A DNA stretch of 64,000 nt from Tubiluchus corallicola. Lineage: Eukaryota > Animalia > Priapulida. A program made the position numbers and the translations under genes. This document shows, piece by piece, positions 2 through 61,000 of this stretch. Each line of letters begins with the position of its first letter. The stretch's first letter is position 1. The stretch lies in NCBI GenBank assembly GCA_030141605.1, contig JAQGDQ010000986.1, positions 8,911 to 72,910 on the forward strand, read 5' to 3'. Below the pieces are notes generated by a model, which worked only from the letters and a program-made list of their open reading frames with translations, made no database searches and had not been told where the DNA came from.

Positions 2-2035
2 TTAAATAATTTACAATTTCTTTCCCTGGCGAGGAACAGGATCAAGTCTGTTCCAGATGGCATATTTAAACCCCTTTCTTCACTGACTTGCTTGATAATG
101 AATGAAAATCAACTTGTCACTGTGCCCACAAAAGCTTTTCAACGTCTGTCTAGTATTCAAAATCTGCACTTAGTAAGAAATAACTTGACAAAATTTCCCG
201 GGGAGATTGCTGCTTTGCTGTCGACGCCAGAGCAGCCATTACAAGTCTTGAATCTTGAACACAATTTCATCTCGGAATTACCACCAAAAAGTGGAAACCG
301 AGTTGACATATTGGAACTAAATCTGGCGCACAATTTAATTGAACACATCGACGGTTCATTTTTTGAGAACCTTGAGAACAGTTTTGAAGTTATTGACCTT
401 TCCCACAATCAAATACGTACATTTGAAAGCAGTGTTTTTTCAAGCATGAGAAAACTGGAAAGAATTTCAATGCGAGGCAATCAAGTATCACATCTTCTAC
501 ATAATCGAAGAGTCGAAGTTATAGACATGTCTGAAAACAACTTTACGATCTGCAATTTAACTGATTTGGCCAGTTTGCCACGAGTGCGTGTCATCGACTT
601 GCGACAAAACCAGATAAATGACTTCAACACAGCCACTTTCAAGCACAAATCGCTATCCGAACTAGATCTGAGCCACAACAACATCACAAGTGTCTCGCGT
701 TTATTTCAGAACATCCTCAGTTACGTCACTTTCCTGAATTTGTCGTATAATCAGATATCTACGTTTAACAATATCACCACGTTTGGCATTCCTAACATTG
801 AAGTCATTGATGTTTCTCACAATTTAATTTCCTCAGTGCCATATCATCTCTGGGCGCAACCTGGGAAGGGTATCAAGGTATTAAACATCTCTCACAACCC
901 TATTGAAGCCATTGACGAGGACAGCTTTCATGGTTTAGTAACAGTGGAAACTTTAGTCATGACAGACCTGCTGAATCTTACCAACTTGAGCTACACATTT
1001 CCATGGATGATGGATGAACTCAAGGTTCTTCATTTGTATAACTTACCTCTAGTTAAGCACATCGATATTGACATGCTGCTGAAACGTCGTAGCAAACTGA
1101 AAGAGTTAGCTCTTGAAGTCAAAGACAGTGTTCTAGATTCACAGTTGAGCGAGGTGATGCCTACACTCTCTAGCTTGTACATTACTGGCAAAAATTTGAG
1201 GAACATCTCGAAGAAAGCTTTTGAGAGTTTTGGCTCCAAGGTGTCACCTTTAACAGAGTTGGAAACGATACAGTATAAATTGCAGATTAAGGGCACCAAC
1301 GTTCGATACTTATTCTGGCCCCTGTTTCCATTTACGAGTTCTCACATGGCCGTGCATCTGGATCTGAGTCACAACGATCTGTCTGCTTTTAGTCCAGAGG
1401 CACTAGAAGTGTTGAGATTCAATGATATTCTGCACTTGGGACTGGATGAGAGTTGGCTGTATTGTGACTGCTACCATCGCTGGTTTGTTTACTGGTTGCA
1501 GAAATATGAACGGCGGAAGTTCAATGAGTTTATAGACATGATCGAGGACGATCAAGATTCTGCGCATTACAGTGAAAAGTGTGAAGATTACTCAACCGAC
1601 TTTATGAAGAACTTCTATTTAAGTGTGCAGAAACACATTGAAGGCATTAGCTGCTTGGAGCTAAATGGAAAGAATCGTCAGCGTGTGGTCGATTTTAACA
1701 CATCATCAATGGTCTGCGTTTACAAGGCTGAGACGTATGCATTCAGAAACGTTACGGAATGGGTACTTGGCGGAGTCATAGGAATTTTTGCTATAGTGGC
1801 ATTGATCGCCATATTTGCAGCATGCATGTGGTCAGTTCGCAATAAAAAGTCGAAAGACGTGAGTGACATTGCGTACGAAAACTCAGCGTACACCATCACG
1901 CAAGTGAACAGTCATGACAGTCACGACGGAACGCTTGGAAATGGTTTTAGCGCCGAGAACTTAAACAGTACAAATTCCCAGCACACGGAAGACCTCTCCA
2001 AAACTCCCAAGTTCCGCTACACCACCCACTTATGA
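2..2035 (+). CDS. Leucine-rich-repeat single-pass transmembrane protein, 5'-truncated by the window edge (LRR array, LRRCT-like Cys cap, TM helix, cytoplasmic tail without TIR domain)
   Basis: The frame is open from base 2 (LNNLQFLSLARNRIKSVPDGIFKPLSSLTCLIMNEN), so it extends upstream of the ORF-track start at 92. Many LxxLxLxxNxI repeats; WLYCDC...C...C cap; hydrophobic segment WVLGGVIGIFAIVALIAIFAACMW; tail ends YTTHL-TGA; AATAAA at 2166-2171. Confidence 0.92.
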   Translation, partial: LNNLQFLSLARNRIKSVPDGIFKPLSSLTCLIMNENQLVTVPTKAFQRLSSIQNLHLVRNNLTKFPGEIAALLSTPEQPLQVLNLEHNFISELPPKSGNRVDILELNLAHNLIEHIDGSFFENLENSFEVIDLSHNQIRTFESSVFSSMRKLERISMRGNQVSHLLHNRRVEVIDMSENNFTICNLTDLASLPRVRVIDLRQNQINDFNTATFKHKSLSELDLSHNNITSVSRLFQNILSYVTFLNLSYNQISTFNNITTFGIPNIEVIDVSHNLISSVPYHLWAQPGKGIKVLNISHNPIEAIDEDSFHGLVTVETLVMTDLLNLTNLSYTFPWMMDELKVLHLYNLPLVKHIDIDMLLKRRSKLKELALEVKDSVLDSQLSEVMPTLSSLYITGKNLRNISKKAFESFGSKVSPLTELETIQYKLQIKGTNVRYLFWPLFPFTSSHMAVHLDLSHNDLSAFSPEALEVLRFNDILHLGLDESWLYCDCYHRWFVYWLQKYERRKFNEFIDMIEDDQDSAHYSEKCEDYSTDFMKNFYLSVQKHIEGISCLELNGKNRQRVVDFNTSSMVCVYKAETYAFRNVTEWVLGGVIGIFAIVALIAIFAACMWSVRNKKSKDVSDIAYENSAYTITQVNSHDSHDGTLGNGFSAENLNSTNSQHTEDLSKTPKFRYTTHL

Positions 2036-2967
2036 CAATTCGGATGCAACTGTGGCTCTGATGAAGTTCGCCAAGGACTCAATGGCGATTCAGATTACAT
2101 TCAGACAACCCAGTACAAAAAGAAAAGACCTATTCACGTGACACTGGTATAAATTATATTGTAGAAATAAACTTATTATTAGTGTACATATTTATGGGTG
2201 TCAGTGCTAGTGGTAAAGCTACAGTTGCATGGTCTCATTTTTATTTCGCTGAGTCTCGTATATCTCAGTAATGTGCAATTACAAGACTCAGAAATATGGA
2301 GCTTTCTGGGTAAATTTTTAATCTTCTCAAGCCCTGAAAGCATCATTAAATTCTGTATTTTTCTGTTTCTCTGTTTACCTAGTCATGTTTAGCTAATTGT
2401 TAGCTAATAATTTGATAAGCAGTGCGTTTGACGCAGCAACAAGATTAATGCTGATTTTGTCTTATTCGTAAAGGGATGTTAGAAAATATTACTTGCAGCA
2501 TTTCGGCTTTCAGTTAAGCTAAATACCCCCCCCCACACACCCTCCCATCATGTGGCCGAGTATGTAAAGTATAATGGCTTGCCTACCAAGTGCAGTCCCT
2601 GGTACTTCATGATACGGTGCTAGGGTTATACATAAGCTCATTAACAGGTAAATCGATTCGGGTACCATCACAAGGTTGCCTGCTTACCTGGTAAAGTGTA
2701 ACGGCTAAGAAATTACATAACGTCAATTACGTTTTTATTAAAAGCCCTGATTACCTCGCGAGTACGACTCGAAAACTTCAGAGGTTTCTTAAAACCGTTT
2801 GCGTGTTTTGTCTAGAGAGCGTTTCTTGTTAAAAATGATTCGCTAAAATGGTCGAACAAGGGTACTGCCATAAAAGCTTTTGTGAAAAATTGAGTCTATT
2901 AACGATGCAGTTGCAAAGTGGAAGAAAGCCGTATGAGGTTGATGACCAACGAATTTTCAGGAAGAAT

Positions 2968-4146
2968 TATGGTAGGACTGAGACAGAAACGTGACTTACA
3001 TTATATGCCTGTTATGGTAGGACTGAGACAGAAACGTGACTTATATTATATGCCTGGTATGGTAGGACTGAGACAGAAACGTGACTTATATTACATGCCT
3101 GGTATGGTAGGACTGAGACAGAAACGTGACTTATATTATATGCCTGGTATGGTAGGACTGAGACAGAAACGTGACTTATATTATATGCCTGGTATGGTAG
3201 GACTGAGACAGAAACGTGACTTATATTATATGCCTGGTATGGTAGGACTGAGACAGAAACGTGACTTTATATGCCTGTTATGGTAGGACTGAGACAGAAA
3301 CGTGACTTATATTACATGCCTGGTATGGTAGGACTGAGACAGAAACGTGACTTATATTACATGCCTGGTATGGTAGGACTGAGACAGAAACGTGACTTAT
3401 ATTACATGCCTGGTATGGTAGGACTGAGACAGAAACGTGACTTATATTACATGCCTGGTATGGTAGGACTGAGACAGAAACGTGACTTATATTATATGCC
3501 TGGTATGGTAGGACTGAGACAGAAACGTGACTTTATATACCTGGTATGGTAGGACTGAGACAGAAACGTGGCTTATATTATATGCCTGGTATGGTAGGAC
3601 TGAGACAGAAACGTGACTTATATTACATGCCTGGTATGGCAGGACTGAGACAGAAACGTGGCTTATATTACATGCCTGGTATGGTAGGACTGAGACAGAA
3701 ACGTGACTTATATTACATGCCTGGTATGGTAGGACTGAGACAGAAACGTGACTTATATTATATGCCTGGTATGGTAGGACTGAGACAGAAACGTGACTTA
3801 TATTATATGCCTGGTATGGTAGGACTGAGACGGAAACGTGACTTATATTACATGCCTGGTATGGTAGGACTGAGACGGAAACGTGACTTATATTACATGC
3901 CTGGTATGGTAGGACTGAGACAGAAACGTGGCTTATATTACATGCCTGGTATGGTAGGACTGAGACAGAAACGTGACTTATATTACATGCCTGGTATGGT
4001 AGGACTGAGACAGAAACGTGACTTATATTACATGCCTGGTATGGTAGGACTGAGACGGAAACGTGACTTATATTATATGCCTGGTATGGTAGAACTGAGA
4101 CGGAAACGTGACTTATATTACATGCCTGGTATGGTAGGACTGAGAG
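2968..4146. repeat. 45-bp minisatellite, about 26 copies (ATGGTAGGACTGAGACAGAAACGTGACTTATATTAYATGCCTGGT)
   Basis: Directly visible tandem array; two units (near 3267 and 3531) carry a 4-bp deletion. Confidence 0.97.
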
Positions 4147-8750: not shown

Positions 8751-11700
8751 TTATAGAAGTTCCCTGCCAACAGTATTTGGAAACAAAAGACTGGCCAGGC
8801 CACCTGCCAGCAGGCAGCCGGCAACTAACATGATCGGCACAACGCAGGTAACGTCGATAAGAAGACCGAATAAGACGTTTCCTAAAATTGCTCCGAGGCG
8901 AGCAAACACGAGACCAAATCCAAACGCAGTCGCCCTCACCGAAGTGGGAAACAGTTCCGTTCCCAGGATGTCCATAGCATTCCATGCTATCACAGACACT
9001 CCGGCAAACAAACAGGACAGAATCAGATTCTGCGTCCTGTTAGTAACGAACCAAATGAAAAACACCATGACGGCACTCACGGTCATACTTGCGGCCAAGG
9101 GGAGACGTCTTCCCAGCTTGTCCATGAAAACTACCGAAAGAAGATTTCCGGGCACGTTCGCTAAAGCCAGAAACACCGCATCACGATACACCATGCTATC
9201 TGTACCAACGCCACTGCAGTCGGTAAAATTAACAACTGTACTGCTGTTATCATAATTTATAACGCGATCGCTACACACAGATACGTTATCCTCTCTACCA
9301 TACATCTCCAAGCGTTTGAATAACTCTGGAAACCACATCCACAAGCCATAGTAACCGAATGATAGGGTAAAATTGATAAATATCCACTTTAGAGTATTTC
9401 TCGTTAACGGCGTATAAAACAGTTCAACTGCTTTTGACATTGACATCAGAAGCAGCTTCACTTTACTATGCAATATCTTTGGCTTTTCTTCGTAAAAATC
9501 ACATTGCAATTCAATACCATGCAAATCTGAACGTTGTGCCTTTTTGTTGATCTTGTACATTTTTTGCAAGATGACCATGCACTGTACGTCCTTGCCACAG
9601 TCAAGCAGGTATTTCGGACTTTCGGGCAAAAACGACACCAGCAAGATGGCCGAAAAAGCAGGGAACGTGGCCAAAGCCACAAAGATCCTCCAGCTCGTAT
9701 AGGAGAAGCTTGGTCCAAATAGGTTGAGTTGTGTTTGAGGAATAACTGCCCAGGCTAGAAGAGCAACAAGAAGATTCCCCGACATCCAAAATGTGGCCAA
9801 TAAGCTCAGCATTCGTCCTCTGTACATCCGCGGCTGAAATTCAGCGTAGTATGCCCATATAACCGGAACATTACCGCCCACTCCGAAACCGCTGATTATC
9901 CGAAACGTGAGGAAGAGCCAGTACGATTGAGCAAAACTAGACAAGAGGCCAAATATGCCATTAATGAAGAGAGTAAGAAGAAGAACCTTGCGACGTCCAG
10001 TAATGTCCGCCCAAGTAGCCATTACGTATCCACCAATCATCATTCCTGTGTAAAGACAACGTCTGGACGTTTAATCAGATTTGTAAGTTTTACATAATAA
10101 ACAGTAGTAGTAAGACTTATAATTGTCAAGTGTAAGTCGTGCACTGCAATCCAACTTGCCCTGCTGAAAATGCTTTTCAGAAAACTGTACTAATAAGGCA
10201 TTCACAAATAGAGAATCACTTTTGTATCACTTACATGCTGCCTCACTGCATACAGAGCTTGCGTTAGCAATAACGCTCCATAAAATTTCTAAATTTAAAC
10301 ATCCGTACTGGCCATTAGGCACAGCCATTTCAATGGCAAGTCGTATGAAACAAGCCTAGATGAGAATGGGTAAAGTTTGAGAAAATAATCAGAATGCTCA
10401 TAGCGTTCTGAATAACCAGAATACTAGCAAAGCAAAAGTACCACTTATTTTATATTATCAATAAGATCAATAATGTGCTTTTTGGTGACTACTGGGAACT
10501 GGGATGGTGATGCAGTGATGCTTTACCAACTGGTGCAAATTATCAAATCATTCCATTTTAAAATTATTAAGAATTTTCTTTTCCAATTACACAAGCACTT
10601 TCAAACAGGTAAGCATGATGCTAATTAATGCAATCCGTATGGAAAGTTTTTTGGGATAAACTTTAAAATACCCTTTTCTTAACTTTTCGGCTAATTGTGC
10701 TCACAAATGTCAAGTTATTTCAACGTAACCAAGAATGTTAATGAGTTGGATTTACTGTGATTGAATTTAGCAGTGGTAATATCCACCATGCTGTGCCACT
10801 GTATGTAACCAGTGACTAACCAAATTGCTCACTTTTTGTAAGGGTCAGAGAAATGTAATAACATATGTGTGCTTGCAAACCAAAACCATCCAAAAGTCGA
10901 AATGCCTCAAAGTAGAATGACCCAAAAATTTGGTCAAATATAGTTTTTTTGTTTTTTTTATAAAAACAAACAGTAAATATAATGGACTTTTATATTCTAG
11001 CATCAATTTATCCAAAAAATAGTTAAAATTTAATTTTATAATCGTGCGCCCATTTTTCTGTCTAGAAACTAGTACTGCAATTGTAAAAACTCCTATTTTC
11101 AAACTCTGATAGTAACTCCTGGAAGTTGTCATTTTGTTTCGAGTTTTTTCTCTTGCCAAGCTCAGATCTTCACCAGGAAGAGCCATCTACTGAGTTAAAA
11201 CATAACTTCAATGTGTTCTTGCAAGCAAAGTTCGTAGCAACCAACAAAAAACAATGACTGACGTTAACAGCAATTTTCTCAAGATTATGTTTTTCAGTAC
11301 GCAGCGCCAGCACCTCGACTTAAATGTGGATTATCACAGCTTAGAAGTAGCATAGAGCAATGAACTTGGTATCAAAATGAACCTCGTGAAATGGAGATTC
11401 AGGGAATGTGAATAAGTAGAAAATGTTAATTGCCGACTTATGGACAAGAACACTTTGCTGGGAAAAAAATTATATTCATTTTTTATTTTTGGAATTAGCA
11501 TTTAAAATCGGATCAGTTAGGCCATACCAGGTTCTAGCAAAATGAACTTGACAACCATTTTTGTCAAAGTTATTCATTGAGACTTTATAAACGTTTGCAA
11601 GCTAGAACTAAAAATAAAACAAAGTGCTTACTGTTACATTTGCTCTGAATTAACTATGGATCTACACGCTCATATCTCAGGTTTGCCGAACAAAAGAGAG

Positions 11701-16070: not shown

Positions 16071-19000
16071 TCATACTACATTTTCAGGATTAGGAAAAAG
16101 AAGACCAGTTAAACCACCCCCTACCAAACTTATAGTCATCAGTATCATTGGTAAAAAACAGTTTTTGTCAATGAGATGTCCAAACGAAATATTTCCTAAG
16201 ATTGCACCAGTGCGGCCGAATACCTGCGCAAGTCCAAATGCAGTTGCTTTAACAGGTGTGGGAAATATTTCCGAACCCAACACTTCTAATGTATTCCATG
16301 ACAAAACAGACATAGCAGCAAAAGCACAGGAAAGAATTAAATTTTGGAGAGAACTTGTCACAAACCAAATGAAAAATGTAATAATTGCACATGTTGTCAT
16401 GGCAACACCCAACATCAGTCGTCTTTTTACCCTGTCCATAAGCAGAATAGACAATAAATTGCCAGGGATGTTTGCTAATGCAAGAAACACTGTATTCAGA
16501 TATACAGAACTGTTCGTAACAATTTCTGTGCAATTTTCGCTAGAGATTATCTTTGAGGTATGGTTTTTGAAAACTGCAGCACTGTTACAAATGGTAGCAT
16601 TTTTCCCTACATCTTCATCGTGTGCATAAAGTCTTTTAAATAATTCGGGAAACCACATCCACAAACCGTAGAAAGAAAATGCTAATGTAAAATTAACGGT
16701 GATCCACACAAAAGTGAATCGGCAGAGAGACGGATGAAAAAGCTCCTTTGCTTTAGGCGCACATGCGCAAATTATGGAATATTTACTTTTTAGCTCTCTT
16801 CTTGAACCCTTAGGATTAGGGCAGAAATCACTGCAGCACATCAACTCTATCTTGTCGAAATGAACGTAATTTTTGGTGTTTGCCTTTTTATTGAAATTGT
16901 ATATCTTTTCTAAAGTTTCCATGCACAGTTTATCCTTTCCTCTCTCGTGAAAATATTTCGGGCTTTCGGGCAAACACCAAACCGGCATAACTGCCGTAAA
17001 AGCGGGAACTGTACACAGCAAAGTAAAAATTCTCCAACTGGTAAACGAAAAAACTGGACTGACAAAGTTCAACTGCTTTCGGGGAATCACCGCCCAACCT
17101 ACAACAGCAACTAGTATGTTTCCAATAACCCAGAAGGTAGCCAGATAGCTGAGCATCCGCCCTCTGGCTTTCTTTGGCTGAAATTCGGCATAATAAGACC
17201 AGACTACTGGAAAATTGCCACCAACACCGAACCCGCTGAGCACACGTAGAATAAAAAATAGCCAGTAAGACTGAGCGAAACTTGACAGGGCACCAAACGT
17301 GCCATTGATGAATAAAGAGAGAATGAGCACTCTGCGACGTCCGGTCACATCCGCCAAGGTGGCCATTGGATAACCTCCTGCCATCATACCTGCGCAATCA
17401 AAACAAACATTTATCAGCCGAGAGGTATATATCGGTGTATAATAGATCAAATACGTTAATTATTGCCTTAGATCAACGGTGTAGCAACAACTGTAGTGAT
17501 ACAACTGGTGTAGCAATAGAAATAACTTTATATTTGAAAAATAATGATGATGCCACAACATCCATTTACTTTATTTTTCATTTTAAAATGGCAACTCCAA
17601 CAACAATAATACAATATATAACAAAACACAGTATAACATGATATGATATGATATAGCATGATACACACAGGATTTCATAATTATAGTAATATTTTAATAA
17701 AATGATTATGGTATGTGATCTACATAATAATAATATATAATAATGATAATAATAATAATAACAACAACAACAACAACAACAATAATAATAATAATAATAA
17801 TGCTGGATGCATTATTATAGGCATAGTCAGGAAACATTGGTAGTGCGACTATAATGCAACTAATGGTGCAGGTACTACGATGCAAAAAGGGAAGGTAAAA
17901 AAACAATGGAATGATAGGTGGAAGGCCCAAGAGATCGGAATTAGCAGGGTTAGGTTAGGGAAATGATGTTAATGAAAATGAATATGAGATTGCTATTTAG
18001 AACTTTGCAAAAATATGTACACATTTATTTATATATGTTTACTGTGGGCCAGTCTGCTGTGCATTGGGAATGGTGCACTATTTACATGTAAGAAGGGATA
18101 GATGACTTGCCAACTTTAGAACACATTCTTTTTTCACTTCAGCGTAGTGCAATTAAGTCATTGTCTAGCCCTAGCACTCAAAGTCAGGCCTGGGCCACTT
18201 CTTTCTTTGATGACTACATGTGGATGGACCAGAACTCGGTTACCTCATTATCCAGGACATTCCAACATGAATTTCTGAATTGTTAGCGCTGCCTTAATTA
18301 GTTGCAACTTTCCCAGCAAACTAATTTGCTAGTCAGGCACAGTGTTCCTTAACTTTGATTAGGAAAAATTTTACCAGGATAATGCAAAGCCTAAGACCAC
18401 GAATACATTTACCTTAGGTCTTAGGAAAAGAAAGGACAATTGTTATGTGTGAATTGACATTATCATTAAATAATATATAATTAATATTGTAGTTGTAAAA
18501 CAGAACCAGTGTGCAGTTTTTGTCAAAAGCACTTGTTTACTTTATTATTCAAATAGCGTAAGAAAGTAATTATAATCCAAGCAGCACGACAATATTGTAC
18601 CAATGTTGTCACAATGTATTTGCAAATATGGATACCAGATGCAAATGTGGACTTGCTACAATAGCGTACCAATATTTTTTATCAATAAGTGAAAACCATG
18701 TGTTTCCAAAATTGGACGATAATACTGGTCCAATGTTGTACCAATGTTAAATAAAAAATATCCTATGCTGACCAAAAATGTGACAATATTTTCTAAACAT
18801 ATTTTTGTGAATATCCTGGACAAGATCGTGACCACATGGTGGCAATGTTGTGTGCCGCCTGAGAATTTAGTTACCAATGAAGGTGCTTGCACCTAACCAT
18901 CCTTTGTTAGCGGAAGTTAAGCCAAGTTCACATTCAGCTGCTGGAAGCATGAAAGACACGCAAAGTACCTAAAAATGTAAATCATATGACTTTGTTATAA

Positions 19001-24400: not shown

Positions 24401-27400
24401 CATGCTAGTGGCGTAGCTAGAGTTTGTGTTGTCCTGGCGGCACCTGAGTTTCCGCCTCTTCTCCCCCCGTGAAATATACAAGTTAGGAACTCAGTTTCAG
24501 AATTTAGATTACATCGTAAAGTTTGGAGGTGTGGCATTACTTCGTGATAAGCAGGGATGAGAATTTTCCGCGGATACGCGGAATTCCGAGTTTTTGGAAT
24601 ACCAGTAGTGCCATTTTTGTAAATCGCGTAAATTCGTTGAGAAAATTTTTACGGACCCAATACATTATTTCACAAACTGACCGCTAGTTGGCAGGCCGTC
24701 ACTTTGTTTACATCACGTATATCAGTGTAACCACGTGTATATCTCTATGTATAAAAATATAGAATCAATTTGAGTCAATTACAGACAGTTTTTATATACT
24801 TTTGCATAGGAGCGGCCAGTACTTAGGTGTTTTTGAGACAATTAGGTATCATGTATCCTTGATAGTTGGGTATTTTAAATTATGCATGAAACAAGGTAAT
24901 TGACATTTTAAGTCCACCTAGAGGCTCTCTACGGTCACAAAAATGCAATTTGTTGCTGGCTCCAAGGGGGCTTGCCCCCTTGAATATTCTTGGGGGCTTT
25001 GCCCCTCAACCACATTGGGGGCCTAGGTGGCCCCAAAACCCCTGGCCTGTTTCAGAGTTTTTTTACATTTGTCATTCTCATCCCTGAATGTGGAGATAAA
25101 TGGAAATATTATAAAGCAATTTCTTTATAAAGCAATAAATTCTCCCAGTTAAAGAAGTTAATGTGAGACAGCAGTTTGTAGTGAATAATATAAATGTTTT
25201 GCACACCTTCAACTTCAATAGTTGCTTGCTTCAATGCCTTTTCTATAGCTGCATAAAATGACTCTTTATTCGAAACTCATAACAAAAGATTGCTTTAGAT
25301 ACATTTCTATGTAGCCACATTGAAGGCATTTTGAACTCTTTTGTGTTTTCACAATTCAACGAAAGAAAAATCATTTGAAAATATTAATTTAATACAAACA
25401 ATTGAGAAATATTAATATTATATAATACAGGCAATATAGATAACTAAAAGAAAGTGAAATTATTGCGAAATTCTTATTCAATAGAGACAATATAAAAAGT
25501 GTAAAGAAAATTCATTTTGAAAATTATTATTTAATACAAACAATACAGAAAATTAACTAAAAATTTATTCAAGCTGGAGAGCAAAACGGTAACCATAGCA
25601 ACTGAAGAAGCTGTAAACAAGCAGCAAACACGTCAGTTTTGTGCAAACTTCTAGCGACACAAGTTTCCTCGTTACATTCGGGTTATTTTCATCAAGAGAA
25701 TCTGAGAAAAGAAAGTGTAATTACTTATAAAGTTACAACTAAGAACTGTAAGAAGGTAGTAAAAATGTGTTTTTATTGCAAAATTTGAAGATGAACTAAA
25801 TACAGGACATTTGGGTGTCCCTGAAAGGTCAATAAGGGATAGGGAACAAAATTATCAAATATGGCTATATTTGCCTGGCATCCCTAATCAAAACCCCATT
25901 TTCTTTAAGAGACTATGTCCTGCACACTGGCTTTGTTCAAAATGAACTAGACCTATTTTGTCACACATCGTATATACTGCTGTATACAATGTAGCAAAAT
26001 TTTCGATTCTAGTTTCGAAATGTTGCACTTCCGATCTCATTTACATTTTACTAAATTTCTCGCAGGTGATTACACTGTGATATGTGTGCCAGGTCTTGGA
26101 AATTCCAGTGAGAGCATTTACATAAGAACGTTCGTCAATTTTATGCAGAACTCGGGGTATCGTGTGGCTGTTCTTAATCACTTAGGAGCCTTGAAGACGG
26201 AAAAAATAACTGCTCCGCGATTGTTCACTTACGGTAAGTCACCAAATGCTGTAACTGCTCCGCGATTGTTCACTTACGGTAAGTCACCAAATGCTGTAAA
26301 TTTATCCTTATTAACTATTGGAATTTGGCACGTGGGAAATTTTAATTCAAACTAAATCCTCACTATAATATAAGCTTTTACAACCTAAAATCCTACTCTC
26401 ATTATGAATATTCAATTTATTTTATTATAAACTCCGTAAAACTTGCTTCTTTTGATTTTTTATTGCTTCGTTGTTAGTGATAATAAATTTGAAGAACCTC
26501 CATTTTTCGGTGCTCGAGACAAATGCTGTAATGAGTACAGTCACGAGGTCACCGAATATCGGTTAACAAACATTGGTAAACAAAGACCCTTTCTGTACCT
26601 CGTACGTCATTCTCTCTCACTCGTACCAAAGACATGGCGATTTTTACAGCAACGTGTGCGTTTGAAATTTGCCAGAAAAAGGTAAGTTATTTAATTTATA
26701 AGTCTCTTTGTTTAATAATACCTGTTAATTATTTGTATAATCATAATAATGTGTCAAAAAACTTCATGTTTGTTGGGTTATACAGGCCTTTAAGAGTTTG
26801 TAATGCAGTGTCTGATTAAATACTAAACTTCATGATTGCTTTCTTAAAAAGAACTTCTGACCACAGTTGTATCAGAGGCTTGTCAGTTCTAAGTGTTCTG
26901 GTAAAGCGAAACGTACTTACTGTATATAATGATTTTAAGAGTAAGGCTGTCGCACGGGTATTGTAAGATGAATTTACTGTGCTCCATTCTATTCTTCATT
27001 GTAACTGCTTCATTTTGGAATTCTATAAATACAGGAGGTACAGAAGAGCTTCGCAAGATGATCCAGACCGTCATGGCCCTATTTCCGGGAACCGTTCTCC
27101 TGGGTGTAGGATTCAGTATGGGTGCCAATATCCTCTGCAAGTACCTAGGAGAAAATGATAAACTTGCAAAAAGGTTTTTGTGTGCCATGTCCATATGCCA
27201 AGGATATGATGCTGTCAAGTATGTGTAACCATAGCAACAGTGTATTTGGTACTTACAATAGCTTCTAGTTTTAACGGAAAACAGGATGATTTTTCATAGT
27301 ACATCCCATTTTGAAATCCTTTAAAGGATGATTTTTCATAGTACATCCCATTTTGAAATCGGGTAAAAAGTATACATTTTAATGCCTATAATTATGTCAA

Positions 27401-38170: not shown

Positions 38171-39952
38171 ACGTCACTATGCCACGTATATCAGGGGAAG
38201 AAAAGTAAATCTTAAATTATGGCCTAAAAAACTTTCCGTGCAAATCTATATTACTTAGCATTTCACTTACCTGCTGGAAAGACTTATGTAACTAGACTAA
38301 TAATTAAAATGTTTGGTAAAATGTCGCTTCACCCTCCAGGGTGCGCCATTCACTAGCCAAAAACGTATTTTTAATCTTATTGACAAGATACAGTAATTTT
38401 ACTTAATTAGTAACATGTATGCCACGAATGCTCTGATTATTTTTTCAAACTTTACTCAATGTTATCAAAACTTGTTTCAAACGACCTACCATTAAAATGG
38501 CTGCGTCTAACGGTCATCGTGGGGGTTTAAATTTACACGTTTTATACAGCATTGCGGCCGATGCAAGCCATGCATACGAAAAGGTAATACGCAAGTAGTA
38601 TAAAATTTCGAGACTAATTTTTTTAAGCCTTATGTAAGTGGAGGGTTTTCTTGTGCTTTAAGCTAGTGGTCGAGATTTCTGATTGCAACCGAGCAGTCTT
38701 GAGTTTTATACTTGCAGCTGCCAACGCCAGGTCATACACTCTATACGTTACTAGTTGTTTGTGCGTTGCGTCGTTGTCTTCATTGTTGTGTGTAAGTCAC
38801 TAAATAACCGTTAGTGCTAATGTTGTCTGGTAAATGATCAATGGTCAATAAATGTTGTCTTTGTCTTTAATTGAGGACTTTGTAAACTCTTTCAGATTGC
38901 AACAATTTTACAACGAGATTCGTAAATCAATCAATGTGAAACGATCGATTTTCTAACCGGGCCGCTAAACCTTTTATTTCCTGCGTCTATTGTTCACCTT
39001 TCACGAGAACAGCCTCACGTTCATTATTGTACATATCAGTGTATTTGTCTACGCTAGCTATACGCCCATGGCTGAGTATACATTATACATAATAGTGCCT
39101 ATTTGCATATTTACCACTATTGTAATACAAGTAGTGATGATTACTGCTAATTGCAAATGACATGTAAAATAGACTCTAAATTACGCGAGTTGGTTTTCAA
39201 CTGTAACGTACAACTTGTGTCCTGAAGTGCAAGCCTTGACAGATACATCACAGAAAAAGTTGAGAAGCCTAAAGCAAGGATAGATTAATAGAGATAGATT
39301 TCACTGTCTCTGCTACACACATGATAGTTTCGTATTTAGCTCATTTTTGCAGCGTGTTTTAACCTGACCTTTCCTTTCTCTAATTTGTGGTTGTCCAGAG
39401 ACAGAGAGGACATTTTTTTATAAAGCCAAGATCTGTTCAAATGATTTGCTCAAATCAAGGAAACCGCATTTACAAATTCCAAAGCACCAGGTCTGTACTT
39501 GTGTGCGCAGTACTAACTGGAAAAATTGATTTCATGAATGAAGTTGTTTAACAGCAATTGTCTGTCCAATAATGCTAGTTATTTTCTCCGGTTCTTCCGC
39601 GCATGCTCACTAAACGATTAACGATGAGATGTGCGAAGCCAAAGTTCGCTATACAACAGTGAAGTAACGGCCAGTGTTTTGGTTAATTTGTACTACGATA
39701 TCGTTGGTTATATTGTTAAAGAACTGGAGTATGCTACCTGTTGATACATTGATGCTTTGAACACCAAAATGGACGCAGACAGGATTTATTTAGCCTGACT
39801 CATTTGTGTGTGATAGACTAAACATATCAGAATGACCACTTGGCCTATGCTCTTGTGTGTGTGTGTGTGTGTGTGCCAGCCAGTTTTAAATCTTTGTGTA
39901 TTTACGCCCATCTGCAACTTTAAAATTAGTTAATAATGATTATTTTATTATA

Positions 39953-54197
<14,245 letters not shown>

Positions 54198-58000: not shown

Positions 58001-61000
58001 GAAAAAGTTTATTATCTTGGTCGTAGTTCATAGCCATTATACCAATTGTAGCAACAACAACAACAGCCATTGTAGCAACAACAACAGCAGCCATTGTAGT
58101 AACAACAACAGCAGCCATTGTAGCAACAACAACAACAGCAGACATTGTAGCAACAACAACAACAACAGCCAATGTAGCATCAACAATGACAACCAGATTG
58201 GCTTCGTTTGAGACTCACCTTTGCTTCCAGTCTCTTCACACTTTTTGGCGGTTTCCCACATGACAAGACTAAACGAATAGACGTCTGCTTTGCAAAATGC
58301 ATCAAAACTGTGAATGTTAATTGACTCATCCAGTATTTCAGGAGCCATATATCTAGAATGTACAGTGATTGCAATATACTGCGTTTTCAACTATGTACAG
58401 TAAGTCCTCGCTTAACGACTCCCCGTTTAACGCCGTTTCGCTAAACGTCGCATTTTGTTGCAACGCTTTAGCGTCGTTAAGCGAGGACTTACTGTATAAC
58501 AGAACTTAACTACACAACAAAACAATATCAAGTATTAAAAGTTCAGTTCTTCAGAAATATACTTGTCAGAAAACACTAAATAGGCACATCGAAGCTGAAC
58601 TTTTCCCGATGTTGTAGATGCAGATTGTAAAAATGAACTGCAGTACGTTTTCTACGAAAAGCTCTGATAACAAAATAAACCTACTAATAACAACCTCACA
58701 ATTTACACTGCAAGTTGCCTGCCACTTAATTCAGTAAATCAGTTATTTTATAATAAAATATTAGATTATATAAATTTTTTATCAAATTCCGTTAAAAACA
58801 TTAGTACCTAACTTCCTTCTTCTTCTGCTGTTCTAAAAATCTTTTGTAGACATACAGCCTCTATCCTTTACTAGAGTACTCCACTGTTTCGTGTCAGCAG
58901 GTAAAATTTTCTATTCCTGCGATACTATTATTAGGTTTGGTTTCAGCTGTTGTAAATCTTTGTTAATTCTTGATATCCGGGTTGCTTTTGGGTTTCCCTA
59001 AAGGTCGTTTAGCAGGTTTCAGTGCCTCATTTTTTGCTAATTTTACTGGTGTTGTTTCTGGCAATCTCATTGAATGTTCTACCCATCTTAGTCTTCTCAT
59101 TCCGATTTTAGTGCCTCAATGTTCTTCTTTGTTTGTGTTATACAGCACCTCATTTGATATGACATGTGGCCATTTTATTTTTAAGATTTTTCTGAGTAGG
59201 CCTCTGTGGAATACATTTATTTCTGCTTCCAGCGTTGCAGTTAAGCCCCACATTTCACTGCTGTACGTAAAGGTACTACTTACGTATACATAAAGAGTTG
59301 CAGCCTTGTTTTGAAGGACAGTTTCTTGCTGGTTAGAAATGATTTATTTTGGATAAAATCGTACATTGCCAGTTGCTTCTTATTTTTGATATCATCTTCA
59401 GTGTTAAGTAACGATCCTTCGTATTTGCAACATTTCCAGGATTGAATAGTTTGCACCAAAGTAGCTTAATAATTTTGGTGTAACCAAAATGTTATGTCTG
59501 TAAAATTATCTATCCTGCTCGTATAGCTGGAGTTACTTAGAATTAACTGGAGGGCTTCTCTATGAAAGTTAAAAGAAAACCGAATGATTGTGTCAACTTT
59601 AGTTCGGAATAAAAAATGCTGTAAAATATTGAAAACTACAATAGCTTATTTTAAATCAAAGCTTAGATTAAATAATAATTACCTCGGATACTCAAATTTT
59701 GTTAAACCTTCAAAGCTACGCGCGTCTCAGTGAATCTACTAAGATTGGCAGCGGCGCCTTTTTGTCACGTGCGCGTGGTCGGCAAACAAAAGACGGTATC
59801 GTGATAACCGTGATCATGAACTGCTGTGTTAGTTTCTGACGTCATATGACGTAGAGCCCATTTTCGTGACATCACGCGTTTAAGCAGTAGTGCAAAACTT
59901 AGTCAAACGTGCTTGACGCGCAGGGAAAGATGCCTTTCATTGCACAAACTGTGGTTAGTTTCTGATCTAAGCAATAGATGTGTTCGGTTGCCGTTCATTA
60001 ACTTTCTAAGCCAATTATTCAAATGTAAGAAACAACTGCTAACTTTTATAGGCCAGAAAACGTACATTTTGGAGAGTAAATTAAAATGAGATAAAGTATA
60101 AACAATCATCCGATTTTCCTCTAAGGAGTTTGATATACTGCTCACGCTACCTCTAGGTGCAATGACTATGGTGGGTAACTGAATATTATTGTAAACGTAT
60201 GTAGGATGAATTCAGTTCAACAGATTACTTCATTCATTTAGAAATCACTGGCATTTTTTTTACTGTACCTTTTCGTTCCAACCCTAAAATTCTCCACGCC
60301 GTAGACAGAACCGTCCAAATTGGCAATAATAGACAGACCGAAGTCAGCAATGCAACACTCTCCGTCTAATTTTACTAGAAAGTTTTTAGACTTAACATCC
60401 CTGTGAGCCACTCTCGGTTTATCTGTAAAAAAGCAGTAACCCAAATTTAAAGGAAAAGGCAAGCCTTCTAGGAGGTTAGGCTTATTTCAATGTTCGCGAC
60501 CAATGTTAGAAGAATTTAGTAATAATGACTGTCTTGCCATTATTATCAAATATTGCCATTTAGCAGCTGATTAAAAATTTCTCTGTTTTATTACTTTACT
60601 TTTTAACGTTTCTTAAATAAATTGTGACTTTGTTTGTTTACATGACATTCTTTTCTAGACAAAATTGTGACTTTGCTAAACATCATAAATTAATCGTGAT
60701 TTTTTTCCCTGTGACTTTCCCGGTGACTTTATCAGGTGGGGTACGAATACCGTTCGCCAGCACTGTACTTACTGCTTTTGTCTATCCCTCTAACGCTGGT
60801 ATGTAAGTGATGCAAGCCATTGGCTGCAGATGCTAGAAGCTTCATCATTGATTGTTGTGTCAATACGTGATCTTGCAGGTAATCGTACAGAGAACCACGC
60901 GGATGGTACCTCGTCACCAACCAGTACTGAATACACCCATTGGCAAGATCACAACCAACGTAGCCTGCAAAGTTCACAACAGCAACACTTTTGAGACAAC

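What the first reader, a model, noticed from the sequence alone, without database searches (positions are those of the whole stretch)
2018..2171. Candidate programmed stop-codon readthrough that swaps the PDZ-binding tail of an LRR membrane protein
Seen: the ORF ends YTTHL-TGA and the stop context is TGA CAA TTC. The frame stays open for 38 more codons (QFGCNCGSDEVRQGLNGDSDYIQTTQYKKKRPIHVTLV, TAA at 2150-2152). The composition stays coding-like until that second stop and then turns AT-rich, with AATAAA at 2166. By-eye pairing gives a hairpin just downstream: TCGCCA 2068-2073 with TGGCGA 2083-2088, and GGATGCAACTG 2042-2052 imperfectly with CAGATTACATTC 2091-2102. Known: UGA-C is the leakiest stop context, CARYYA is the TMV-type readthrough motif (5 of 6 positions match here), 3' stem-loops stimulate readthrough, and both T-H-L and T-L-V fit the class I PDZ ligand consensus S/T-x-hydrophobic-COOH. 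Inference: one mRNA makes two receptor isoforms with different PDZ ligands, a translation-level switch of scaffold partner.
Basis: partly seen in the sequence, partly recalled or inferred. Interest (0 to 1): 0.85.

Follow-up and report, generated by a model that had tools for sequence, protein, structure and literature searches.

The report
Leaky stop swaps receptor's scaffold tail
In an invertebrate leucine-rich-repeat membrane protein gene, the UGA stop is followed by 38 more in-frame codons and, 8 bases after the stop, by one arm of a predicted 14-base-pair long-range RNA stem, so some ribosomes likely read through and replace one scaffold-binding-type tail with another, by a mechanism already known from insects and viruses.

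Summary
The sequence facts are right: YTTHL-TGA-CAA-TTC, 38 open codons, TAA at 2150-2152. Both homologous C-termini found (Priapulus caudatus and an unnamed one) end at the same PKFRYTTHL, so the first stop is old, not a nonsense allele. The likely stimulator lies outside its coordinates: a 14-bp stem, 2044-2057 with 2217-2230, starting 8 nt after the stop, the geometry of Drosophila kelch (14 bp, 8 nt). It beats 3000 of 3000 shuffles and is the only such helix at 481 TGAC sites in the window. A diverged lineage shows 3 synonymous and 1 non-synonymous change in the extension, without indels (suggestive, small sample). No homolog DNA, ribosome or protein data were available. Readthrough about 0.7; a true PDZ-partner switch about 0.45. 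AATAAA at 2166 lies inside the loop, so poly(A) choice could gate readthrough (untested). The scan holds no note on this gene; it noted similar stop-plus-stem cases in other genomes and two other readthrough candidates in this one (unreviewed).

The parts
2..2035 (+). 3' part of a chaoptin-like LRR single-pass membrane protein gene (677 codons in the window, start lies upstream of the window)
   Evidence: LRR_8 E 4.7e-49; 40% identity over 689 columns to Priapulus caudatus XP_014669029.1, named
1763..1819 (+). predicted transmembrane helix (residues 588-606 of the window ORF), followed by a 71-residue cytoplasmic tail
   Evidence: hydropathy scan
2006..2032 (+). invariant C-terminus PKFRYTTHL, class 1 PDZ-type end (T-H-L)
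   Evidence: identical in window, P0001 and P0002 while the rest of the tail diverges
2033..2035 (+). first stop, TGA, followed by CAA TTC (5 of 6 positions of CARYYA)
   Evidence: bridged without a listed difference by contigs of X1 and X3
2036..2043 (+). 8-nt spacer between stop and stem
   Evidence: kelch 8 nt, VEEV 8-9 nt (PMC3159437)
2044..2057 (+). 5' arm of the predicted long-range readthrough stem
2036..2152 (+). 38-codon readthrough region and second stop (TAA 2150-2152); ends HVTLV, class 1 PDZ-type end (T-L-V)
   Evidence: 3 synonymous and 1 non-synonymous listed change, no indel, in run X6
2160..2214 (+). candidate proximal poly(A) site inside the loop: TGTA 2160, AATAAA 2166-2171, CA 2187-2188, then G/T-rich sequence
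   Evidence: read from the sequence; use untested; the consensus elements are recalled, from no call
2217..2230 (+). 3' arm of the long-range stem, in the 3' UTR, 159 nt from the 5' arm
1856..1864 (+). consensus-like 5' splice site at a codon boundary (rival route to the extension, with an in-frame AG at 2103-2104)
   Evidence: three listed changes in X6 (1858, 1861, 1864) weaken it

Best explanation
The gene's TGA stop is followed by CAA TTC, 38 in-frame codons and a predicted 14-bp long-range stem 8 nt downstream, so it is likely a programmed readthrough site at which a minority of ribosomes would make a longer receptor whose ancient T-H-L end is buried and replaced by a T-L-V end. Steps. 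(1) Shown: stop, context, open frame, complementary arms, spacing, and both motif matches. (2) Inferred from kelch, alphavirus and dfr experiments: with the stop in the A site the stem sits at the mRNA entry channel and disfavours termination, the weak UGA-C(AA) context lets a near-cognate tRNA in (Trp, Cys or Arg, recalled), and readthrough would be a few percent to about 10% (VEEV 7.6%, 10.1% with CAA-UUA, PMC3159437 section 14). (3) Inferred: translation runs to TAA 2150; PDZ domains read a free C-terminus, so the long form would lose the T-H-L ligand and present T-L-V, probably to a partly different set of PDZ scaffolds. Readthrough about 0.7; that the new end is a working, different PDZ ligand about 0.45 overall.
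For: First stop is old: P0001 (P. caudatus) and P0002 (unnamed) both end at PKFRYTTHL. Stem: -21.4 kcal/mol as an isolated helix; 0 of 3000 dinucleotide shuffles reach that energy and 8 of 3000 reach 14 pairs with a start 4-14 nt after the stop and a span of 300 nt; 10 of 6287 other window positions reach it; 1 of 481 TGAC sites in the window, this one, has any helix of -15 or better, and it is also open for 38 codons; five other apparent ORF ends in the window have helices of only -2.4 to -8.0. Region 2036-2260 z -2.68, 2 of 200 shuffles. Geometry matches kelch (14 bp, 8-nt spacer, 268-nt loop) and VEEV (11-12 bp, 8-9 nt, 101 nt) (PMC3159437); distance from the stop matters in dfr (PMC13170385 section 19). 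Run X6 (a lineage 90-95% alike or less): listed changes in the extension are 3 synonymous (one a first-position Arg AGA to CGA) and 1 non-synonymous, no indels; all 4 would be non-synonymous in either other + frame; about 1 change in 50 non-synonymous sites against 8 in 62 nt after the second stop (Fisher p 0.04). X6 stays alignable to 2244, just past the 3' arm, then diverges. No in-frame Met, no antisense ORF of 60 codons over the extension, no SECIS. Drosophila chaoptin and its Anopheles ortholog, distant family members, are listed as TGA-C readthrough candidates (PMC5100048 Data S1).
Against: No direct evidence of readthrough (no raw RNA reads, ribosome footprints or peptides). DNA behind the stop in P0001 and P0002 could not be read, so TGA identity, extension and stem are untested in distant homologs; no covariation was seen or testable. 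The X6 signal rests on 4 changes: 3 of 4 synonymous has p 0.03-0.08 under a neutral model; the UTR control itself has 5 of 8 changes at in-frame third positions and the extension-versus-UTR synonymous ratio is not different (Fisher p 0.55); 3 of X6's 15 differences were not listed, and if all fell in 2051-2080 as amino-acid changes the contrast vanishes (p 0.55); they could also fall in the stem arms. X6 does not cover the TGA, and that it is RNA is only a guess. The stem was found after looking, and 10 of 6287 window positions do as well. No protein carrying the extension was found. One in 30 random open segments ends in a PDZ-like triplet.
Confidence: 0.7

Rival explanations
1. No selected readthrough. 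Translation ends at TGA; the open frame and the T-L-V end are chance, and the stem is an ordinary 3' UTR structure (stability, localisation or poly(A) control) that explains the raised conservation of 2051-2244.
For: 8.4% of stop-to-stop segments are this long and 3.4% of those end in a PDZ-like triplet; the UTR after the second stop is also alignable in X6; synonymous excess not significant against the UTR control; codon score not frame-specific.
Against: Needs the stem's 8-nt spacing, the TGA-CAA context, the open frame and the low non-synonymous rate to coincide: 1 of 481 TGAC sites has such a helix; changes are synonymous only in the ORF's own frame.
Confidence: 0.16
2. Alternative splicing, not recoding: an intron from the donor at 1859 to the AG at 2103-2104 (or 2112-2113) removes most of the cytoplasmic tail and the TGA and joins the juxtamembrane region in frame to the last 15 (or 12) codons of the extension. 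This would still swap T-H-L for T-L-V.
For: A GTGAGT donor at a codon boundary and in-frame AG acceptors exist; long-range pairings can steer splicing (recalled).
Against: X6 carries three listed changes in the 9-nt donor, two at intronic consensus positions; acceptors have only 6-7 pyrimidines in 12; X6 contigs run unspliced across donor and acceptors and neither lay lists a joint (contigs drop rare forms, so this is weak); it leaves the 8-nt stop-to-stem spacing unexplained.
Confidence: 0.07
3. The stop is recoded otherwise: A-to-I editing of UGA to a Trp codon, or selenocysteine insertion.
For: UGA is the codon for both; weak pairing over the stop is predicted in some folds (unpaired probability 0.21-0.26 at 2033-2035 in the 2030-2260 fold); a Cys-x-Cys motif follows the stop.
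Against: No SECIS by Rfam (best hits in 1900-3000 all far under their thresholds, none SECIS); a loose SECIS pattern hits only at 2933 and 4159, at the edges of a 45-nt tandem array; the strong helix does not include the stop; Cys-Asn-Cys is encoded by the stem's 5' arm, so RNA pairing may dictate it; homologs end at the stop.
Confidence: 0.04
4. The arms are terminal inverted repeats of an old 187-nt miniature transposon inserted 8 nt after the stop.
For: Size and inverted ends fit; GG flanks both ends.
Against: No second copy in the window; in run X1 only one contig lies on 2044-2230 at 80% likeness whereas a repeat shows as an extra contig at 2334-2368; the inside evolves with a frame-specific pattern.
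Confidence: 0.03

Closest known systems
Drosophila kelch UGA readthrough with extended 3' stem (Firth et al. 2011, PMC3159437; passages and section 14 seen)
   Same: Cellular gene, UGA, 8-nt spacer, 14-bp predicted stem, long poorly conserved loop (inner pairings here are also broken in X6).
   Different: kelch context is UGA-AUG, its stem has a bulge and is conserved in 12 species, and its extension is hundreds of codons long (316 in Table 1 of PMC4999894); here the extension is 38 codons, the 3' arm lies beyond the second stop with an AATAAA between the arms, and conservation is untested.
Alphavirus (VEEV, SINV) nsP3/nsP4 readthrough stem (PMC3159437)
   Same: UGA-C, 8-12 nt spacer, 10-12 bp stem, 101-154 nt loop; CAA-UUA after UGA adds to the stem's effect in VEEV.
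   Different: Viral, experimentally shown; extension is an enzyme, not a short tail.
Drosophila dfr/vvl stem-loop readthrough (PMC13170385; abstract, sections 19 and 22 seen)
   Same: Stem starts about 9 nt after the stop and its position matters.
   Different: UAG, compact local hairpin within 60 nt; a 60-80 nt screen of that kind would miss this element.
Mammalian AQP4ex (PMC6444679, passages) and predicted PDZ motifs in readthrough extensions of OPRK1, OPRL1, AQP4 (PMC4999894, passages)
   Same: Readthrough of a membrane protein buries a C-terminal PDZ ligand (SSV) and changes anchoring; PDZ motifs at extension ends have been predicted.
   Different: Those use UGA-CUAG (recalled); a working class 1 to class 1 swap is not shown in the passages seen.
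Drosophila chaoptin (chp) and Anopheles AGAP000019 readthrough candidates (PMC5100048 Data S1)
   Same: Same broad LRR family, TGA-C, short second ORF (26 and 55 codons).
   Different: No RNAz structure listed, stops marked not orthologous even between the two insects; chaoptin is GPI-anchored (recalled) while this protein has a transmembrane helix and PDZ-type tail; orthology not shown.

Membership tests
Structure-stimulated programmed stop-codon readthrough (kelch/alphavirus type) | Leaky stop, typically UGA followed by C | tested here: met
   TGA CAA TTC
Structure-stimulated programmed stop-codon readthrough (kelch/alphavirus type) | In-frame second ORF without an internal start or antisense gene to explain it | tested here: met
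   38 codons, no Met; stops in all three minus frames
Structure-stimulated programmed stop-codon readthrough (kelch/alphavirus type) | First stop is ancestral, not a recent nonsense change | tested here: met
   P0001 and P0002 end at the same residue; the stop triplet in those species was not readable
Structure-stimulated programmed stop-codon readthrough (kelch/alphavirus type) | Stem of 10-14 bp starting 8-12 nt after the stop | tested here: met
   14 bp, 8 nt; 0 of 3000 shuffles, 1 of 481 TGAC sites; predicted, not probed
Structure-stimulated programmed stop-codon readthrough (kelch/alphavirus type) | Stem conserved across species with compensatory changes | tested here: inconclusive
   X6 covers 2051-2244 but differences near the contig's ends, where both arms lie, are not listed (3 of 15 unlisted); no other homolog DNA
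Structure-stimulated programmed stop-codon readthrough (kelch/alphavirus type) | Protein-coding evolutionary signature in the second ORF, ending at the second stop | tested here: inconclusive
   3 synonymous, 1 non-synonymous; p 0.03-0.08 neutral, p 0.04 against UTR rate, p 0.55 in the worst case
Structure-stimulated programmed stop-codon readthrough (kelch/alphavirus type) | Not explained by splicing, editing or SECIS | tested here: inconclusive
   SECIS not found; splice donor not kept in X6; editing untestable without raw reads
Structure-stimulated programmed stop-codon readthrough (kelch/alphavirus type) | Measured readthrough that depends on the stem | not testable with these tools
   needs reporter, ribosome profiling or mass spectrometry
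TMV-type readthrough (UAG-CAR-YYA) | UAG followed by CARYYA | tested here: not met
Class 1 PDZ ligand | X[T/S]X-hydrophobic at a free C-terminus | tested here: met
   T-H-L and T-L-V against the definition in PMC2553845
Class 1 PDZ ligand | Binding to a PDZ domain, and different partners for the two tails | not testable with these tools
   no binding test run; PMC2553845 reports eight position-0 specificities and contacts to up to seven residues, which makes a difference plausible only
Chaoptin orthologs | Groups with chaoptin-like GPI-type proteins; hydrophobic end without cytoplasmic tail | tested here: not met
   window, P0001 and P0003 form their own clade (100/100) with unresolved neighbours among 17 rows; the protein has 71 residues after its hydrophobic helix; Drosophila chp itself was not in the tree
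Selenoprotein | SECIS element in the 3' UTR | tested here: not met

The most novel reading that the evidence does not exclude
A two-layer switch: the stem's 3' arm lies downstream of a proximal poly(A) signal, so short mRNAs (cut near 2188) lack the stem and make only the T-H-L receptor, while long mRNAs fold the stem and make a T-L-V isoform. Poly(A) site choice would thus set the readthrough rate and thereby which PDZ scaffold an LRR receptor binds, in a lineage outside Pancrustacea, where abundant readthrough was thought absent. Searches for readthrough with alternative polyadenylation and with PDZ ligands listed no paper that describes this.
Probability: 0.15. Interest if true: 0.8.

Novelty: new member of a known kind. 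Interest (0 to 1): 0.5.

Why it matters
It is a compact, directly testable cassette (about 230 nt). If real, it gives a clean case of readthrough exchanging one C-terminal PDZ-type ligand for another, a function predicted for readthrough extensions (PMC4999894) but not found demonstrated in my searches. It would place a kelch-type long-range stimulator in a probable priapulid relative, outside the Pancrustacea to which abundant readthrough was confined (PMC5100048), and it shows that screens folding only 60-100 nt after the stop miss such elements. If the poly(A) signal between the arms is used, mRNA 3'-end choice would control recoding.

Tried and rejected
Nonsense allele or assembly error: rejected. 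Local folding of 2036-2152 and eight shorter or shifted local windows: none significant (z +0.7 to -1.64). Other inner helices of the 2036-2260 fold: 6 of the 9 paired positions that differ in X6 lose their pair, so not conserved. The other open + frame (2065-2271): 11 of 12 X6 changes are non-synonymous, rejected. No whole genome is held. Homolog DNA: a degenerate pattern and a profile scan of metagenome contigs found nothing. Proteins bearing the extension: none among 24 profile hits or 34 short candidates. Sequencing runs: no RNA holder listed; X4 and X5 laid nothing; these blanks are no evidence. ESM Atlas gave generic LRRCT clusters only; PDB gave nothing better than E 0.001; Rfam nothing above threshold. 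Tree placement against chaoptin-like and other clades unresolved (17 of the 30 stored proteins plus window considered: fragments P0002, P0004, P0006, P0011, P0012, P0018, P0023, P0024 and cluster mates P0025-P0030 were left out). Paper searches with no listed paper: (readthrough with Priapulus). No structure or complex prediction was run: the tail is short and probably disordered and no PDZ partner sequence was at hand.
Full report
The gene. The window begins inside a single long reading frame (2-2035) for a leucine-rich-repeat protein with a predicted transmembrane helix at residues 588-606 and a 71-residue tail. A word-indexed search with residues 380-677 found 1 relative among 1117 candidates, Priapulus caudatus 'chaoptin-like' XP_014669029.1, 40% identical. 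A profile search of 1.84 billion representatives gave 24 hits, 3 at 1e-10 or better: P0001 and two unnamed fragments, P0002 and P0003. Window, P0001 and P0003 form one clade (100/100); its place among chaoptin-like and other transmembrane LRR clades is unresolved. I infer a priapulid or near relative; the organism is not otherwise identified.

The observation. TGA at 2033-2035, CAA TTC after it, 38 open codons, TAA at 2150-2152 and AATAAA at 2166 are as described. Alone they are unremarkable: 670 of 7933 stop-to-stop segments elsewhere in the window are as long, and 23 of those 670 end in a class 1 PDZ-like triplet. GC drops from 43.9% to 32.5% at the second stop, but a codon-usage score is not frame-specific.

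The first stop is old. P0001 and P0002 both end at PKFRYTTHL, identical over nine residues while the rest of the tail has diverged and carries indels; P0003 does not reach the tail. Contigs from runs X1 and X3, two studies, bridge the TGA with no listed difference. So the T-H-L end is a conserved free C-terminus, as expected of a PDZ ligand (class definition: PMC2553845, passages), and the stop is no error or null allele.

Folding further downstream reveals a 14-bp helix between 2044-2057 and 2217-2230, 13 Watson-Crick pairs and one G-U, 8 nt after the stop, with a 159-nt loop. Its 12 inner pairs have probabilities 0.92-1.0 in four contexts of 231-1400 nt. Scoring the best helix that starts 4-14 nt after a site within 300 nt: 0 of 3000 shuffles reach its -21.4 kcal/mol and 8 of 3000 reach 14 pairs; 10 of 6287 other window positions reach the energy and 56 the length; among 481 TGAC sites on both strands only this one has a helix of -15 or better, and five other apparent ORF ends reach only -2.4 to -8.0. 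Firth et al. (PMC3159437; passages; section 14) describe this architecture: kelch 14 bp, 8-nt spacer, 268-nt loop; VEEV 11-12 bp, 8-9 nt, 101 nt, with 7.6% readthrough in cells, under 1% without the 3' arm, rescue by compensating mutations, and 10.1% when CAA-UUA follows the UGA. In dfr, moving the stem 3-9 nt away lowers readthrough (PMC13170385, abstract and sections 19, 22). I found the stem after looking for one, and it is predicted, not probed.

Evolution of the extension. Only one diverged source exists: run X6 (guessed RNA), whose 4 laid contigs are 90-95% alike or less. In the main ORF, 22 of the 26 listed differences (of 38 in three contigs) are synonymous. One contig covers 2051-2244 with 15 differences, 12 listed, no gaps. 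Four lie in the extension: three synonymous and one Asn-to-Lys change that also removes the closing pair of the inner hairpin; all four would change amino acids in the other two + frames. Eight lie in 62 nt after the second stop. About 1 change per 50 non-synonymous sites against 8 per 62 nt gives Fisher p 0.04; 0.013 if the three unlisted differences are in the UTR, 0.55 if all three are amino-acid changes in 2051-2080. Against my reading: 3 of 4 synonymous has p 0.03-0.08, the UTR control has 5 of 8 changes at in-frame third positions, and the two synonymous ratios do not differ (p 0.55). The T-L-V end and TAA show no listed change, a 5-14% chance outcome. X6 does not cover the TGA, and its letters in the stem arms cannot be confirmed. 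It becomes unalignable 14 nt past the 3' arm. Homolog DNA was not obtainable, and no protein with the extension was found.

Rivals. A splice route exists on paper: a GTGAGT donor at 1859 in frame with AG at 2103-2104. X6 has three changes in that donor, the acceptors are weak, and no joint is listed. No SECIS. No second copy of the arms or inside, against a miniature transposon. No in-frame Met or antisense gene. Pure chance with an unrelated UTR stem remains the main rival (0.16).

Mechanism. Shown: stop, context, frame, arms, spacing, motif matches. Inferred: the stem at the mRNA entry channel and the weak context let a few percent of ribosomes pass; the long form buries T-H-L and ends in T-L-V after a basic KKKRP stretch. 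PDZ domains differ at position 0 and read up to seven residues (PMC2553845), so partners would plausibly differ; masking alone, as for the SSV end of AQP4 (PMC6444679, passages), is the smaller claim. AATAAA 2166 lies inside the loop with TGTA before it, CA 15 nt after it and G/T-rich sequence beyond (consensus recalled). Cutting there removes the 3' arm (folds of truncated RNA); ATTAAA at 2345 and 2737 are downstream alternatives, and the X6 contig runs past the arm. Poly(A) choice could therefore gate readthrough; untested.

Comparison with what is known. It works like kelch/alphavirus readthrough and meets four testable features, with three inconclusive and the measurement untestable; it is not strictly TMV-type. 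PDZ motifs in readthrough extensions were predicted before (PMC4999894, passages). Drosophila chp (TGA-C, 26 codons) and its Anopheles ortholog (TGA-C, 55 codons) are listed candidates (PMC5100048, supplementary file 2 searched; file 1 could not be searched; passages); orthology to this gene is not shown. That paper confines abundant readthrough to Pancrustacea and does not mention priapulids. PMC2235866 (passages) and PMC9226519 (passages) gave background only. Searches for readthrough with PDZ ligands and LRR proteins (no papers; 30 of 46 listed, titles and abstract starts), with Priapulus (none) and with alternative polyadenylation (listings) showed no description of this gene or of such a switch; subscription journals are largely outside the library.

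Earlier notes of this scan. None on this gene or look-alikes. Two unreviewed readthrough candidates in the same genome and four stop-plus-stem cases in other genomes; I saw the latter after finding the stem and the Firth paper, and tested none.

Verdict. Likely programmed, stem-stimulated readthrough (0.7); PDZ-partner switch plausible but unshown (about 0.45); new member of a known kind; interest 0.5.

Noticed in passing
window 2968-4145: 45-nt minisatellite, 26.4 copies, 96% matches, about 800 nt after the gene's end; gives long spurious ORFs on both strands.
   Followed up: partly
window 8754-10070 and 16074-17459, minus strand: Two tandem paralogous major-facilitator transporter ORFs (Sugar_tr E 1e-33), each a single long exon; resemblance to SV2 is recalled. 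The second apparently ends TGA-CAG with a 19-codon second ORF and no strong helix; the ORF ends may be exon ends.
   Followed up: partly
window 2-2035 versus P0002 and P0003: No intron in 2 kb of coding sequence here, whereas P0002 begins and P0003 ends with unrelated residues that look like translated intron, suggesting intron loss or gain in this family.
   Followed up: no
window 2334-2368 and 2386-2421: A short repeated segment (extra contig with higher depth in X1 and X2) next to an imperfect palindrome built on TTAGCTAA: possibly a small mobile-element remnant in the distal 3' UTR.
   Followed up: no
run X6 versus window 932-2244: A run carrying the same species label as the best DNA holder differs by about 7-10% in coding sequence with a short indel near 1918: a cryptic species, a distant population or a label error.
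   Followed up: no
window 25951-26352 (+), 47740-48108 (+), 45096-45965 (-), 58040-58390 (-), 39890-40678 (+): Exon-sized pieces of an alpha/beta hydrolase, an ionotropic-receptor-like channel, a C2H2 zinc-finger protein and a receptor-type kinase (Pfam); the cysteine-rich 263-codon ORF at 39890 has no Pfam match.
   Followed up: partly
PMC5100048 Data S1: Chaoptin is a readthrough candidate in both Drosophila and Anopheles with non-orthologous stops; with this gene, readthrough may recur in chaoptin-like LRR proteins as a way to change the membrane-side tail.
   Followed up: partly
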